Source of the DNA: Octopus vulgaris
Taxonomy: Eukaryota
DNA length: 64,000 nucleotides
Assembly: GCA_951406725.2 (NCBI GenBank)
Contig: OX597822.1
Span: 76,880,001 to 76,944,000, forward strand
Direction of reading: 5' to 3'
Part shown: positions 4,516 to 47,863 of the stretch, one piece after another
How positions within the stretch are numbered: the first letter of the stretch is position 1
How the letters are laid out: each line of letters starts with the position of its first letter
Program-made: the position numbers and the translations under genes
The notes under the pieces: generated by a model
Database searches by the model: none
What the model was told of the DNA's origin: nothing
The model's input: the letters and a program-made list of their open reading frames with translations, nothing else

Positions 4516-4576
4516 CTCTACTGAAGAAAGAATATATCTTTTATAAGATTAATTCCGAAATTGATTCAATATAGAG
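4516..4576 (+). ncRNA. Type I hammerhead ribozyme motif (intact core)
   Basis: Stem I CTCTA (4516-20)/TAGAG (4572-76); core CTGAAGA 4521-27; stem II GAAT..ATCTT-TTAT-AAGAT..ATTC; GAAA 4557-60; stem III ATTG-ATT-CAAT; cleavage triplet ATA 4569-71. Confidence 0.72.
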
Positions 4577-4795
4577 ATAACGAAATTTAGATTTTCTAAA
4601 GGTTAGTTGCCCGTTTTCAGTTTCAATTCTCCTGTAGCAAGCGGATTATAAGTGGATAAATCAGTGTATTGGCTTTAGAATAACCCTCTTTAGCCCTTAA
4701 TTATATGATATATATAAATATATATATATATATATACGCACACACACACACACACACAGAGACACACACACACATACATACAGAGTGAGTTAAAA

Positions 4796-5007
4796 ATAGA
4801 TATGGCCAGACTATGGGGTTACCCTGGGTTTCACATCCATAAAGTGCTTAGCTTTGCAGCATTTCTCCAGACCCTAAATCTGTTGGCCTATGGCCTCTTG
4901 CGAGAGAGGCCATAGGCCAAAAAGTTTAGGGTCTGGAGAAATGCTGTAACGCTAAGTGCTTTACAGACATGAAACCCAGGGTAACCCAATAAATGGGCCA
5001 TATCTAT
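4796..5007. mobile_element. ~210-bp fold-back (palindromic) element, probable MITE
   Basis: ATAGATATGGCC..GGGTTACCCTGGGTTTC..CAGCATTTCTCCAGACCCTAAA..TTGGCCTATGGCCTCT | AGAGGCCATAGGCCAA..TTTAGGGTCTGGAGAAATGCTG..GAAACCCAGGGTAACCC..GGCCATATCTAT. Confidence 0.75.
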
Positions 5008-5591
5008 CTTTATCTGTATACTCAACTGCTCTATAACTTAGAATGTGCTTCTTTTTCAGATTTATGATTTACTGACAATATACGAGTATATCTACATATA
5101 CATACATACATCAATGGAACTGTAAATGTCTATAAAACTTTCCAGAAGTTTATCATTTAAATATATATGTGCATATCTAGGTAATCAATTATATGCATGA
5201 GACTACATGAATAAAACATACAGATCTGCACATACATACATACAAACAAAATACCAGTTGTTGATGTTGAAATTCCAATGAAGGAACCTTGGATCTAGGT
5301 TAAAAAACGGCTCTATCTCTATTGGCAAGAAATCTCAAAATAAAGTGAATACTCATAAGGTATTGGAATCTTACATTGTGTATAAACTCTATACTTGGAA
5401 TGAACGATTTTAAATACTGTTGGATTTTTCTCATAAGGTATTGGAATCTTACATATATACCATTCTGCCTAAAAAATGGATCTACAAATTCAATATCCCT
5501 ACATATCTCACATCTATTTTCTTTCCTCCACCTCACTCTCTATTTTGTATCCTATCTAAATTAACTATTTCTTAACCATCCTCTCACACCA

Positions 5592-5637
5592 TCTCCGATG
5601 AAAGGATATAATAAATATCCTGGAAACAAGTGTAAGA
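5592..5637 (+). ncRNA. Minimal hammerhead-like motif (CCGATGA core variant), Penelope-type
   Basis: TCT-CCGATGA-A-AGGATAT(AATAA)ATATCCT-G-GAAA-C-AAGT-GTA-AGA. A second copy with the same flanks is at 44210-44255. Confidence 0.55.
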
Positions 5638-5866
5638 CCTTCTATCTATAAATGTTCTAATATCTAAACAGCCTTGGTTTTTTATCTCACTACGCAAAAA
5701 ATTCTTAATGATATACATACATAAACATACATACATACATACATACATACATACACACACACACACCAGAGTAAGCACATAAATGCGAAACAAGGTGGAA
5801 AAAATAGTACTCAAATACCAAAGGTAGAGTAATATGCATTATTAAAATGCAGCATAAAGTTCACAT

Positions 5867-5910
5867 AAACTGTTACTCAGTGTTTCACGTTCCCGTTCAT
5901 CAGACAGTTT
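5867..5910 (-). ncRNA. Minimal type I hammerhead ribozyme, left arm of the palindromic pair
   Basis: Reverse complement reads AAACTGT-CTGATGA-ACG(GGAA)CGT-GAAA-C-ACTGA-GTA-ACAGTTT. Perfect stem I and stem II; one substitution in stem III. Confidence 0.72.
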
Positions 5911-44160: not shown

Positions 44161-44209
44161 TTTTTTATCTTACCTAAATTAACTATTGCTAAACCATCTT
44201 TTCACACCA

Positions 44210-44255
44210 TCTCCGATGAAGGGATATAATAAAAATCCTAGGAACAGCTGTAAGA
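44210..44255 (+). ncRNA. Decayed minimal hammerhead, paralog of 5592-5637, with palindromic stem III ACAGCTGT
   Basis: TCT-CCGATGA-AGGGAT...ATCCTA-GGAA-CAGCTG-TA-AGA; the GAAA box is mutated to GGAA. Confidence 0.45.
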
Positions 44256-46115
44256 CCCTGCTATTTATAAATGTCCTAAAATCTACATAGCCTTGGTTTT
44301 TTTATCTCATTACAGGAAAAAAATTGATATATATATATACATATAAAGGATAACGACCCCTTCGGTCACGAATGACCATGGGATTGTACCTGGAAAGTTA
44401 CCCTCTGAAGTACAAGTCTGGACAAGGTTGTTTATAGAAGACCAGCAGTTGCCCGTGCATGCCAACCTCTATTCTGCAATGTTATCCAAGGGAAAGGCAA
44501 AGGCTGATTCAGCTTAGCACCAGTGATGTTGTAACTCATTTCTACAGCAGAGTGAACAAGACTAACATGAAATAAAGTGTCTTGCTCAAGGACACAACAT
44601 GCAGCCCGGTCTGGAAATTGAACTTACTATCTCATGATAGTGAGCCCAATGCTCTAACCACTGTGCCATGTGGCTTATACACAAAATAAAGATGCTTCAT
44701 TTTACATTGCTCCAGTCCAGCTGGCAAAAGTGAGCTATACCTGTAATTCAAAGGAGCCAGCCTTGTCACACTCTGTGTCGTGCTGAATCTTCCTGAGAAC
44801 TACATTAAGGATACACACGTCTGTGGAATACTCAGCCACTTGCAAATTAATTTCTATAAATTTCATGACCAGGCTGTTTTGTTCAATCAGATCAGCTAGA
44901 ACCCTCGCCATAGAAACCAACGGAGTTCCAGTATGCTCTCATCCTCTCTCTCTCACTCTCCTCACACAATCACATCGACCCTTTGTTATTACAATTATTG
45001 AAAATTCTTGGACTTGCATTTTGTCTAATTTTGTTCCCATATTTCTTATCCTAATTACCATAACGAGTATTCTCCTGTCTTATTCTATTTCCTCTACATC
45101 TTCTTCTTCTTTCACTTCTTGTCCTTCTTCTTTCTCTGCCCCCCCCCCCCGCCACTTTCTTCCCTTGTTTCTTCTTTCCTTACCCCTTACATCCTCATTA
45201 AAAATAATTGAATAAAACACATATATAGTCTTGTAACCCACATTTTTCTGGTAATAATTGACATTAGTGTTATTGTGACTCTGGCTTTGTTTCACCCTTG
45301 CTACTACGGTTGTTGCTGTTGTTGTTGTTACTGCCGCTGCTGCTGATGATGATGATGATGTCATCATCACTGCCACCACTGCTGCCATGGTTGTTATTAT
45401 TATTGTTTTTCTTGTTACCTGTTATCATTATTATTGTTGTTATTGACATTCTTCTTGCAATTACTGTTCCTATTGTCAATGCTTTTGTTGTTGTTGCTAT
45501 TGTTAGTATCATCATTTTTTTTTTGTCTTCATTACTGTTGTCTTATGTTCTTATTATTTTATTTTATTATTTTTTTGTCTCTCAAGTTCGTTAATTTTAT
45601 TTTCATTTCCCACTGATAATGTTGCTAATGTTGTTGTTGCCATTCTAATTATTCTCCAAAGGCTGTGAAGTGGCAAAAATGGCAAGAATGCCAGACAAGG
45701 TGTCTTCATGTGTCTAGTTCTTTCCATTTATATTTTATGCTTAAATATCCTATTGGGCCAGATTTGGTTTTGAAATGTCTCCAAGATTAATCAGATAAGT
45801 AGCAGTCAAAAATTGGTTGAAGGAAGTTCATATATCATATTTGATGGCCTAAAAGACACACAGACACATTAAGTGCACCCCAATTTCAGCAGAGCAAATT
45901 CAGGAAAAAAATTAGTTTTAGTGCATTTAACCTTTCAGCATTTAAACTGATCATCATCATCATCATCATCATCATTTAACTTGCATTTTCCGTGTTGACA
46001 AGGGTTGGGTAGTTCAACAGGAGCTAGCAAACCAAGTTCCATAGTCTTCTTTAGCTTGGTTACTACAGCTGGATGTCCTTCCTAAGGCCAACCACTTTAC
46101 AGAGTGTACTGGATG

Positions 46116-46330
46116 GTTTTTATGAGGCACCATCACCAGTACTTTTTATGTGGTTCCAGCACCAGTGCTTTTTACATGGCACCATCACCAGTGCTTTTTA
46201 TGTGGCACCATAACCATTGCTTTTTATGTGGCTCCAGCAGCAATGCTTTTTATGTGGCACCATCACCAGTGCTTTTTATGTGGCACCATCACCAGTGCTT
46301 TTTATGTGGCACCATTACCAGTGCTTTTTT
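46116..46330. repeat. 26-bp minisatellite (GCTTTTTATGTGGCACCATCACCAGT), about 8 copies, inside a family C SINE
   Basis: Direct tandem copies with no spacers. Confidence 0.85.
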
Positions 46331-47542
46331 ACAAAGCACTTCTAATCTAAATATTCTACAAGTTTGATGTTCAAACTGATCAGATTTAGTTTTTCACACT
46401 TACCCTATAATGTCATTCTAAAATGACTAACCACATCACAGATGTCCCAAAGCATGATTAGTCTAAGATAATACAAATAAGCATTATATTTCAAAGAGTA
46501 ATCTGAATGCTAAAAGGTTAAACTATGTAATATAAAACCCAGGGTAATATTTATTTTTAATAAAAAGGGTAATCAACTATCATGCCCTGTCACCAGCACC
46601 TACTTTGTTCTTCATCTTGTGTTGCGGTATAGTAAGGGTTTGTTCTTAGCATCCAGAAGCAAAAACACTTTTAGTGCCCCCACCTTAACACTTTGCCTCT
46701 CATAGAAGACTCTGGTGACTCGCAGTGTTATATTCTTAATATTCCAAAGGAGTTACTCACAGTTTAGAAAGAGAGGATGGAAATGAACAAGTGGAGACAA
46801 ACCACGATATCTTTTATCTTTTACTTGTTTCAGTCATTAGGCTGTGACCATGCTAGGGCTCTGCCTTGAAGAATTTAAAGTGAAGGAATCAACCCCTGTA
46901 CATTCATTTTTTTTTTTTTTTAAGCCTGGTATTTATTCTATCGATATCTTTTGCTGAACCGTTAAATTACAGATATGTAAACACACCAACACCAGTTGTT
47001 AAGTGGAGGTGGGGGCAGGGACAAATACAAGGATACACTCACAAAGATATATATATATACATATATAAATAAATATATGATTGGCTTCTTTCAGTTTCCG
47101 CCTTCAAAATCCACTCACAAGGCTTTGGTTGGCTTGAGGCTATAGTAGAAGACACTTGCCCAAGGTGCCATGCAGAGGGAATGAACCATGTGGTTAGGAA
47201 GCAGGCTTCTTACTGCAAAACCACACTTGCCCCTAAAACATTTATGTTAACCTTTCAATGTGAAACATACAATGAAGAGGGAGTTTCCTGACAGGCCTTT
47301 TTACAATTTGTTGTCAACTCCTCAGAGAAGATATACCCAATCTAATAAAATTTTTTAAAAATCTGAAATATGTTGTATCTTCACATCTCATATACAATAT
47401 TGTATGTCTGCTTTGAGATTTTCTCATCATTATTTTGACAAGAACAGTGACATCTGTGCCTCAGTGTGCTGGTCTGCTAAAACTAAAACATATCCAAAGT
47501 TTACAGTTCAATATTTCAGAGATGAGAAAATATGTACATTAT

Positions 47543-47863
47543 TTACAATTGACGGATATTTGTCCTCATCTTGTTTGTTGTCAACACAACGTTTTGACTG
47601 ATATACTCTCCAGCCTCCTTCAGGTGTCCTGGCGAAATTTCGAACCTGGGTTCTCATTCCTAAGGTATTTTTTGATGTTATCAAAAACAATAACAATAAT
47701 GATAATAATAATAATAATAATAATAACACAACATCGAAAAATACCTTGGAATGAGAACCCAGGTTTGAAATTTCCCCACGACACCTGATGAATGCTGGAG
47801 AGTATATCAGCCGAAACTGTGTTAACAACAAACAAGATGAGGACAAATATCCATCAAATGTAA
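47543..47863. repeat. Inverted repeat (~135-bp arms, 47543-47679 and 47730-47863) around an (AAT)n spacer
   Basis: GGATATTTGTCCTCATCTTGTTTGTTG vs CAACAAACAAGATGAGGACAAATATCC; AACCTGGGTTCTCATTCC vs GGAATGAGAACCCAGGTT. Confidence 0.88.
47781..47822 (+). ncRNA. Hammerhead-like motif in the right arm of an inverted repeat; mirror copy on the - strand at 47584-47627
   Basis: ACAC-CTGATGA-ATGCTG(GAGAGTATAT)CAGCC-GAAAC-T-GTGT. The mirror copy reads ACAC-CTGAAGG-AGGCTG...CAGTC-AAAAC-GTT-GTGT. The consensus of the two is a complete minimal hammerhead. Confidence 0.55.

What the first reader, a model, noticed from the sequence alone, without database searches (positions are those of the whole stretch)
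4516..47822. Unusually high density and diversity of hammerhead-like motifs (at least 5 unrelated families in 64 kb) alongside a Penelope RT remnant
Seen: HHR-shaped motifs at 4516-4576, 5592-5637, 5867-5910, 5921-5964, 6053-6156, 6327-6433, 14144-14182, 20843-20880, 21466-21503, several in 43135-43745, 44210-44255, 47584-47627 and 47781-47822. Their stem sequences differ but the topology is shared. Recurring features are a CCGATGA core variant, an extra unpaired A after the core box, and palindromic stem III regions (AACGTT, ACAGCTGT, ACAATTGT, AACATGTT). A PLE RT fragment lies at 21889-22330. Inference: this genome may hold a very large, under-annotated population of PLE-derived ribozyme relics, many inside introns, where active copies could cut pre-mRNA.
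Basis: partly seen in the sequence, partly recalled or inferred. Interest (0 to 1): 0.75.

Follow-up and report, generated by a model that had tools for sequence, protein, structure and literature searches.

The report
Penelope retrotransposon hammerhead relics in octopus
The motifs are real: they are the small hammerhead-type RNA folds at the tail ends of eight common jumping-gene repeat families lying in the introns of one octopus gene, a known kind of element that likely numbers about a hundred thousand near-intact copies in this genome, and nothing seen here suggests that they cut host transcripts.

Summary
Observation confirmed: 16 motifs, 8 families, about 11 insertions. Each belongs to a dispersed repeat family whose typical copy keeps a minimal type I hammerhead. 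Five families were traced to the 3' pseudo-LTR behind Penelope-like (PLE) ORFs of three clades; one is a 490-bp non-coding unit; two have no partner found. The window is not a hotspot: near-intact motifs run at 3 per 64 kb against 27 per 690 kb elsewhere (P 0.36), implying roughly 85,000-110,000 genome-wide. Many families, the extra A, palindromic stem III, U3-A8 and back-to-back pairs are all in Cervera 2014; U4C is known from a viroid. The RT remnant is a Hydra-clade fragment not joined to any motif. All motifs are intronic in a pikachurin-like gene, with no sense-strand depletion (21 sense, 26 antisense) and a spliced contig, so pre-mRNA cutting is unsupported. Residual interest: the scale, and family-wide core variants (A6U, 13,900 exact copies; G3-C8 outside the window), untested at the bench. 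The scan noted A6U, G3-C8 and the tRNA-headed repeat before on other DNA.

The parts
4416..4709 (+). F1: truncated copy of a young 490-bp non-coding unit; hammerhead 4516-4576 (CUGAAGA, extra A, A.C at 10.1/11.1, palindromic stem III long enough to close as a monomer)
   Evidence: 40 best genomic hits 98-100% identical, partial tandems at 490 bp, inverted arms, (TA)n flanks; 34 exact 61-nt copies; stems I-III form in the predicted fold; no ORF partner in 13 loci
5345..5690 (+). F2 copy; hammerhead 5592-5637 (CCGAUGA; A opposite A or G at 10.1/11.1; palindrome damaged in this copy)
   Evidence: 358 exact pattern matches, C at position 4 in 77 of the first 100 listed; no ORF partner in 13 + 5 loci
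5767..5975 (.). F3 back-to-back pair, hammerheads 5867-5910 (-) and 5921-5964 (+), tail on the left arm only
   Evidence: family lies about 1 kb behind a Hydra-type RT/GIY-YIG ORF in 4 of 5 chosen loci; 6,292 exact pattern matches
6010..6303 (-). F4 pseudo-LTR stub; hammerhead 6053-6156 with a long stem II insert (family core CCGACGA; this copy has C3U)
   Evidence: Hydra-type endonuclease C-terminus directly upstream in 4 of 29 other loci
6300..6440 (-). F5 stub; hammerhead 6327-6433 with a long stem II insert, decayed core
   Evidence: one genomic F5 copy passes the Rfam Hammerhead_1 cut-off; no ORF in matching orientation in 13 loci
14082..14690 (-). F7: 3' stub of a very young Neptune-type PLE; hammerhead 14144-14182 with the U3-A8 core
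   Evidence: at least 29 genomic copies identical over 219 nt; 596 exact 39-nt copies; 781-aa RT + GIY-YIG ORF upstream; complete 4.7-kb units between two motifs
20810..20973 (-). F3 young copy in (TA)n with a short inverted arm carrying the tail; hammerhead 20843-20880 (CCGAUGA)
   Evidence: 96-99% identical copies with variable inversion junctions
21413..21597 (+). F6 stub; hammerhead 21466-21503 with family-wide A6U (CUGUNGA); stem II damaged in this copy
   Evidence: 13,900 of 14,365 exact pattern matches have U6; Neptune-type ORF upstream in L116, L332, L333
21886..22338 (-). Isolated fragment of a Hydra-clade PLE reverse transcriptase, cut at both ends, not joined to any motif
   Evidence: 150 scored genomic relatives, some with open frames over 900 aa; these carry RWx, DKT, CxCX5C and a C-terminal endonuclease (PMC8557442); 48% and 44% identity to two Hydra families, 36% over 76 aa to the F3 ORF; no Pfam match
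43038..43845 (.). Old F3 back-to-back pair present twice through the inverted duplication 42724-43247 / 43635-44160; four decayed hammerheads (43135, 43199, 43638, 43702), all with core changes
44166..44325 (+). F2 stub; hammerhead 44210-44255, GAAA box changed to GGAA
47535..47862 (.). F8 back-to-back pair around (AAT)n; hammerheads 47584-47627 (-) and 47781-47822 (+), both damaged; pseudo-LTR of a Penelope/Poseidon-type PLE that in other copies begins with a tRNA-like head
   Evidence: 2,515 exact pattern matches; head followed by the hammerhead body in 26 of 30 loci and preceded by an inverted arm in 22 of 30; endonuclease C-terminus directly upstream in 2 of 30 and ORF remains in L336
40415..40540 (+). 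Host exon (EGF domain) of a pikachurin-like gene; window 1-40414 lies in the preceding intron of about 81 kb
49919..50157 (+). Host exon (laminin G domain); the GT-AG intron 40541-49918 holds 7 of the 16 motifs
   Evidence: contigs join 40540 to 49919 in 3 of 4 runs laid, 2 studies

Best explanation
The 16 motifs are copies of minimal type I hammerhead folds in eight dispersed repeat families, five of which sit in the 3' pseudo-LTR behind Penelope-like ORFs, and they are likely inert leftovers of ordinary Penelope-type retrotransposition into introns. Shown: family membership, conserved cores and stems, position behind RT/GIY-YIG ORFs (F3, F4 Hydra; F6, F7 Neptune-type; F8 Penelope/Poseidon-type), partial tandems, back-to-back arms with a one-sided tail, (TA)n or AT-rich targets. 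Inferred from the literature: in a master element transcribed as a partial tandem, two hammerheads would pair through the palindromic stem III and cut the RNA to unit length; the RT-endonuclease would nick AT-rich DNA and copy the RNA from near its 3' end, usually stopping early. Because the hammerhead lies in the part copied first, nearly every truncated insertion keeps it, which explains the density. Each family has its own stems, which explains the diversity. After insertion the copies decay; a lone intronic copy lacks a same-strand partner and is predicted not to cut the host pre-mRNA to a degree that selection sees.
For: Families of hundreds to thousands of copies. With positions 3, 4, 7 and 8 left free, 25 of 26 hits in 700 kb have a Watson-Crick 3-8 pair (15 distinct motifs: 11 C-G, 3 U-A, 1 G-C) and all have a pyrimidine at 4; 0 of 5 shuffle hits have such a pair. 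ORF links. Insertion anatomy. Same features described for metazoan PLEs in PMC4209133, PMC8557442, PMC11167929. Genome-wide rate equals the window rate for near-intact motifs. Host gene: 21 sense and 26 antisense hits by homology, 7 sense and 2 antisense near-intact, in 268 kb; spliced contig across the intron with 7 motifs. Only 2 of 16 window copies (F1, F7) match an exact whole-motif pattern counted genome-wide.
Against: No cleavage was measured. F1, F2 and F5 have no ORF partner among the loci examined. Clade names rest on motifs from PMC8557442, not on a tree with reference proteins; Neptune and Nematis were not told apart. F1 at 4516 is young, on the sense strand and folds with all three stems as a monomer, so it could cut alone. 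One gene is a small strand test, and back-to-back pairs dilute strand bias. The spliced contig does not exclude cutting inside the intron. A bioRxiv study reports retrozyme depletion in Xenopus introns (10.64898/2026.07.22.740005). Counting decayed copies, the window is about twice the sampled mean (P 0.02).
Confidence: 0.86

Rival explanations
1. A subset of young, sense-strand intronic copies (best candidate F1 at 4516) cuts nascent pre-mRNA and affects host gene output, so these elements act as widespread regulators or burdens.
For: F1 at 4516 is identical to its family motif, lies on the sense strand of an 81-kb intron and has a stem III that closes as a monomer. About 10^5 near-intact motifs exist. 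Depletion of retrozymes in Xenopus introns is reported.
Against: No sense depletion in the host gene; the gene yields spliced contigs; F1 has an A.C mismatch at 10.1/11.1; single minimal hammerheads showed no cleavage and dimers low cleavage in vitro (PMC4209133).
Confidence: 0.08
2. In some families (F6 with A6U, perhaps F1-F3 with a non-standard 10.1/11.1 pair) the fold is kept not for cutting but as a structure that the PLE protein binds or that pairs two RNAs.
For: F6 reached over 14,000 copies with U at the normally fixed A6; A6C lowers activity below 0.1 per min (PMC3088659); Naiads spread without canonical hammerheads (PMC8557442).
Against: The other core positions stay fixed (only 1,570 of 15,470 copies differ at any of five positions) while N7, the position free in working hammerheads, takes all four letters (40, 24, 21 and 11 of 96 listed); U16 and H17 are kept. 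This is the pattern expected of selection on catalysis. This rival changes the role of the motif, not its origin.
Confidence: 0.15
3. The motifs are chance matches in AT-rich, repeat-rich DNA.
For: Only 3 of 16 pass a stringent descriptor; Rfam finds none in the window.
Against: Shuffles give 0-2 hits where 27 are seen; families are conserved, covary at 3-8 and lie at a fixed place behind PLE ORFs.
Confidence: 0.01

Closest known systems
Minimal type I hammerheads in pseudo-LTRs of metazoan PLEs (Cervera and de la Pena 2014, PMC4209133; parts 1-2 of 4 read, supplements not seen)
   Same: Thousands per genome, many families, mostly solitary truncated copies, extra nucleotide between 9 and 10.1, palindromic 15.2-16.2 and loop 3, pairs on opposite strands 100-700 bp apart, U3-A8 covariation.
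   Different: Estimated number here (about 10^5; 30-39 per Mb) exceeds the 4,000 and 9,000 that paper called remarkable, though the descriptors differ; G10.1-C11.1 is often replaced; C4 is common; family-wide A6U and G3-C8 are not in the parts read.
Hydra, Neptune/Nematis and Penelope/Poseidon clades of EN+ PLEs (Craig et al. 2021, PMC8557442; passages read)
   Same: Domain order, RWx/DKT/CxCX5C (Hydra), CX4CxxC linker with CCHH (F6, F7), no linker (F8), (TA)n targeting, partial tandems, inverted 5' copy, one-sided tail, hammerheads in Hydra and canonical PLEs.
   Different: Tails here reach 70-100 bp (F3, F1) against the 30-40 bp described; these octopus families are not named in the passages read; F8 begins with a tRNA-like head.
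Non-LTR retrozymes of animals (Cervera and de la Pena 2020, PMC7229834, passages; Li et al. bioRxiv 10.64898/2026.07.22.740005, parts 1-2 of 5)
   Same: F1 is a non-coding, low-GC (34%) unit with one type I hammerhead per unit, found as monomers and partial tandems.
   Different: 490 bp, dispersed, with PLE-type inverted arms and tail; circular RNA not tested. The other traced families are stubs of coding elements, not retrozymes. Axolotl has 126,247 motifs in 28 Gb, a similar total at about a tenth of the density.
Natural hammerhead core variants (Perreault et al. 2011, PMC3088659; passages read)
   Same: U3-A8, U4C (viroid; lower activity in vitro, enough in vivo), a change at A6 (A6C, slow) and a mismatch at 10.1/11.1 are recorded as natural.
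   Different: There they are rare single cases; here they are fixed in families of hundreds to over ten thousand copies, and the letters differ (A6U, G3-C8, A.A/A.G/A.C at 10.1/11.1).

Membership tests
Minimal type I hammerhead of PLEs | Core boxes CYGANGA, GAAA, UH in type I order | tested here: met
   Met at family level for F1-F4 and F8, and for F7 with U3-A8; F6 has A6U and F5 often has U9, so those two depart at one position
Minimal type I hammerhead of PLEs | Stems I and II pair in families of unrelated sequence; 3-8 pair covaries | tested here: met
   15 of 15 distinct motifs with a Watson-Crick 3-8 pair
Minimal type I hammerhead of PLEs | Very short, palindromic stem III / loop 3 | tested here: met
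   all eight family profiles
Minimal type I hammerhead of PLEs | Extra nucleotide between 9 and 10.1 and G10.1-C11.1 pair | tested here: inconclusive
   Both present in F6 and F8; F4 has G-C without the extra base; F1, F2 and F3 show A opposite C, A, G or U
Minimal type I hammerhead of PLEs | Self-cleavage at position 17, as a dimer | not testable with these tools
   no biochemical data; runs laid were contigs, which cannot show RNA ends
EN+ Penelope-like element | Motif lies in a pseudo-LTR behind an RT + GIY-YIG ORF | tested here: met
   F3 (4 of 5 chosen loci), F4 (4 of 29), F6 (1 of 13, 2 of 5 chosen), F7 (full ORF 1 of 10, 2 of 2 chosen), F8 (2 of 30, and L336); not found for F1, F2, F5
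EN+ Penelope-like element | Partial tandems, inverted 5'-truncated copy, one-sided tail, microsatellite or AT-rich target | tested here: met
   F1, F3, F7, F8; opposite-strand pairs also for F2, F4, F5
Hydra clade (RT remnant, F3, F4) | RWK-like and DKT motifs, CxCX5C linker, C-terminal endonuclease without CCHH | tested here: met
   full-length relatives of the remnant, compared with PMC8557442; F3 linker reads CxFX5C
Hydra / Neptune / Poseidon clade names | Placement on an RT tree with reference families | not tested
   no reference PLE proteins were in hand
Non-LTR retrozyme (F1) | Non-coding tandem unit with one type I hammerhead per unit | tested here: met
   490-bp spacing, no ORF partner in 13 loci
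Non-LTR retrozyme (F1) | Expressed as linear and circular unit-length RNA | not testable with these tools
   no raw RNA reads listed
tRNA-derived SINE (F8) | Stand-alone non-coding element with no ORF of its own | tested here: not met
   an RT/endonuclease ORF ends directly before the tRNA-like head in L264 and L279
Rfam Hammerhead_1 (RF00163) | Score at or above the gathering threshold | tested here: not met
   0 window matches; 6 genomic matches among 73 scored, one an F5 copy

The most novel reading that the evidence does not exclude
The octopus genome carries one of the densest ribozyme populations known, and its most abundant family here spread to over 14,000 copies with a working CUGUNGA (A6U) core, alongside a G3-C8 family of over 2,000 copies and families with a non-standard 10.1/11.1 pair: a natural library showing that the hammerhead core of retroelements tolerates changes thought to be crippling, and giving the numbers needed to test whether PLE hammerheads must cut for transposition.
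Probability: 0.35. Interest if true: 0.62.

Novelty: new member of a known kind. Interest (0 to 1): 0.38.

Why it matters
The kind of element is known, so the finding as written is not a discovery. What remains useful: (1) a first rough count for an octopus genome, about 10^5 near-intact and about 3 x 10^5 recognisable motifs, invisible to Rfam; I found no paper that counts them. (2) Young families with intact ORFs (F7: 596 exact motif copies, complete 4.7-kb units) from three PLE clades in one genome make the open question of what PLE hammerheads do directly testable. (3) Family-wide core variants (A6U, G3-C8) would widen the natural consensus and the search descriptors if they cleave. The idea that these copies cut host introns would matter for a genome with very long introns, but the data here lean against it.

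Tried and rejected
Rfam scan of the window: 0 at gathering; the best 150 of 322 weak matches were microsatellite and hairpin artefacts, the other 172 were not shown. ARAGORN: no tRNA in the window; no consistent call on 10 F8 heads at a lowered threshold. Pfam did not recognise the RT remnant or three full-length Hydra ORFs. 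The idea that the RT remnant is a Naiad, or the parent of the neighbouring F3 copy, was rejected; its closest relative showed no hammerhead downstream. No ORF partner found for F1, F2, F5. No RNA holder listed for 6300-14000; the runs laid are guessed RNA and contigs only, so they show neither expression level nor RNA ends. Energy folding of short window copies mostly did not give the hammerhead fold, as expected for decayed minimal motifs; it was not used as support except for F1. Rfam found nothing in the F1 unit. Lunse et al. 2017 (PLE hammerhead variants cleaving as dimers) is not held; I know only its title from a reference list, and it or the supplements of PMC4209133 may already show A6U or G3-C8. 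Searches for 'hammerhead A6U' and 'hammerhead G3-C8' returned 2 and 1 listings, none read and none on natural PLE variants by title or abstract start. I did not search the window for the rewired hammerheads that earlier notes describe in Naiads. The 69 sample blocks are at fixed round coordinates, not drawn at random.

Full report
Setting. The window is G000:C9:76880001-76944000 of a 2.8-Gb animal genome. Two exons lie in it, 40415-40540 and 49919-50157 on the + strand; the best protein match (99% over 81 aa) is labelled pikachurin-like of Octopus vulgaris by its source. The coding exons span about 269 kb, so every listed motif is intronic: nine in an intron of about 81 kb and seven in the GT-AG intron 40541-49918. 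Contigs of 3 of 4 runs laid (2 studies; guessed RNA) join 40540 to 49919.

Observation. All stretches hold hammerhead-shaped sequence. A strict descriptor gave 2 hits against 0 in 40 shuffles; a scored one 5 hits against 0.45 at score 5 and 3 against 0 at score 9 (20 shuffles). Each motif has many genomic relatives (only the best 40 candidates are scored per search). Profiles built from 13-29 other copies per family recover 16 motifs in 8 families and nothing on reversed DNA. They come from about 11 insertions, since two are back-to-back pairs and four are one pair doubled by an inverted duplication. Most copies are decayed; only F1 (4516) and F7 (14144) match an exact whole-motif pattern that was counted genome-wide.

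Is the fold real? With positions 3, 4, 7 and 8 left free, 26 hits were found in 700 kb outside the window; 25 have a Watson-Crick 3-8 pair and all a pyrimidine at 4. After collapsing repeats of the same motif (11 rows dropped, among them the one C.A copy) 15 remain: 11 C-G, 3 U-A, 1 G-C. Five shuffle rounds gave 5 hits, none with such a pair. One F5 copy elsewhere passes the Rfam Hammerhead_1 cut-off, while the window has no Rfam match.

Density. In 69 blocks of 10 kb at fixed coordinates on 31 contigs the descriptor found 27 motifs at score 9 or more (shuffles 0-2), or 21 if one tandem array counts once; this extrapolates to about 110,000 (bootstrap 57,000-183,000) or 85,000 (53,000-122,000). 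The window's 3 are ordinary (P 0.36). This descriptor misses most F3 and F6 copies. Counting decayed copies by homology: 16 in the window, 70 in the first 600 kb, 5 in a further 90 kb searched without extending the library, and 31 in the other 204 kb of the host gene; the window is about twice the mean (P 0.02), with selection and library bias in its favour. Exact whole-genome pattern counts give a hard floor of 26,761: F8 2,515, F3 6,292, F2 358, F6 14,365, F7 596, F1 34, and a G3-C8 family absent from the window 2,601; all reversed controls 0. Published figures: about 4,000 and 9,000 minimal motifs in coelacanth and Xenopus (PMC4209133), over 6,000 in 16 families in a coral and 126,247 in axolotl (PMC7229834; 28 Gb). 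Descriptors differ, so the comparison is rough.

Origin. F7 lies about 0.9 kb behind a 781-aa ORF with RVT_1 and GIY-YIG matches; two loci show complete 4.7-kb units with an upstream 479-aa frame between two motifs. F6 lies about 0.5 kb behind ORFs with a CX4CxxC linker and CCHH endonuclease. Both fit Neptune or Nematis by the motifs in PMC8557442. F3 (4 of 5 loci chosen for opposite-strand pairs) and F4 (4 of 29 loci) lie behind Hydra-type ORFs. F8 follows a Penelope/Poseidon-type ORF whose end abuts a tRNA-like head (2 of 30 head loci); the head is followed by the hammerhead body in 26 of 30 and preceded by an inverted arm in 22 of 30. F1 is a 490-bp non-coding unit with partial tandems and inverted arms. 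No partner was found for F1, F2 or F5. Insertions show (TA)n or AT-rich targets, variable inversion junctions and a tail on one arm, as described for PLEs. The RT remnant is a 150-aa Hydra-clade piece cut at both ends; it is 48% and 44% identical to two Hydra families and 36% over 76 aa to the F3 ORF, so it is not the parent of its neighbours.

Core variants. C4 is real at family level: 77 of the first 100 listed F2 matches and 39 of the first 100 F3 matches (my hand counts); U4C is known from a viroid (PMC3088659). F7 has U3-A8, known from Schistosoma PLEs. F6 has U6 in 13,900 of 14,365 matches; the 465 others are mostly C (67 of the first 100), as decay from U would give. Only 1,570 of 15,470 U6 copies differ at any of positions 3, 4, 5, 8, 9, while N7 is split 40/24/21/11 among 96 listed. 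The G3-C8 family keeps that pair in 92 of the first 100 listed. The 'extra A' is a true extra base in F6 and F8; in F1, F2 and many F3 copies it faces C, A or G in place of the usual G10.1-C11.1 pair.

Mechanism. Shown: where the motifs sit and how the copies are built. Inferred from PMC4209133, PMC6765202 and PMC11167929: tandem transcripts, dimer formation through the palindromic stem III, cutting to unit length, target-primed copying from near the 3' end with early stops. The hammerhead is in the first-copied part, so stubs keep it. For host introns, 47 homology hits in 268 kb split 21 sense to 26 antisense (some are fragments without a full core), and near-intact ones 7 to 2: no sign of purging. 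On the sense strand of the window no intact same-family pair exists. F1 at 4516 is the one candidate for monomer activity.

Papers seen: PMC4209133 parts 1-2 of 4; PMC11167929 part 1 of 4; bioRxiv 10.64898/2026.07.22.740005 parts 1-2 of 5; passages of PMC8557442, PMC7229834, PMC3088659, PMC6765202; search listings only. No supplements were seen; those of PMC4209133 and the unheld Lunse 2017 paper may bear on the variant claims. Position numbering of the core follows PMC4209133 and my own knowledge.

Verdict. A correct observation of a known phenomenon, new for these families; not a hotspot; host cleavage unsupported. Interest 0.38, carried by the scale and the family-wide core variants.

Noticed in passing
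window 5269-5326 (+); L344-L363: A further repeat family (931 exact pattern matches) has hammerhead-like parts (CCAAUGA, a stem, GAAA, palindromic CCGG, UU) but A in place of G5 in nearly all listed copies and no adjacent stem I; it can also fold as one long hairpin. One copy lies upstream of a Hydra ORF (L363). Could be a dead, variant or rewired hammerhead.
   Followed up: partly
L237:8373, L158, L288-L293 (not in window): Family with a G3-C8 core pair, 2,601 pattern matches, with back-to-back arms and (TA)n flanks; ORF partner not sought.
   Followed up: partly
L202:7467, L229:6343, L237:2191, L214:9954, L248:6518: At least three more U3-A8 families in the sample blocks.
   Followed up: no
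L178:2272-4548: Array of seven identical hammerheads at 353-359 bp spacing in two opposed runs; may be the 359-bp retrozyme of earlier notes, though the core here reads CUGACGA.
   Followed up: no
L337:632-2069, L338: F7 elements carry a 479-aa open frame ahead of the RT ORF, overlapping its start in another frame.
   Followed up: no
L050, F1 unit upstream of the hammerhead: A GC-richer stretch of about 90 nt with two apparent hairpins; no Rfam match.
   Followed up: partly
L258-L287: F8 pseudo-LTR starts with a tRNA-like head (A- and B-box-like words by eye) and an (AAT)n run; many copies begin right at the head, as Pol III starts would give. The window copy lacks the head.
   Followed up: partly
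L130-L149: Several Hydra-clade families with open frames of 830-960 aa; Pfam recognises none of the 3 tested. No hammerhead was seen behind the L131/L132 family within the DNA fetched.
   Followed up: partly
window 42724-43247 and 43635-44160: Inverted duplication with 95-96% complementary arms around a 387-bp spacer holding another repeat; cause unknown.
   Followed up: no
window 17797-19197 (+) and 55582-55896 (-): LINE-type zf-RVT remnant and a Tc1/mariner-type HTH remnant.
   Followed up: no
window 8816-9006, 11977-12327, 16574-16731, 52227-52377: A dispersed repeat with an internal 66-bp tandem unit, four copies in both orientations.
   Followed up: no
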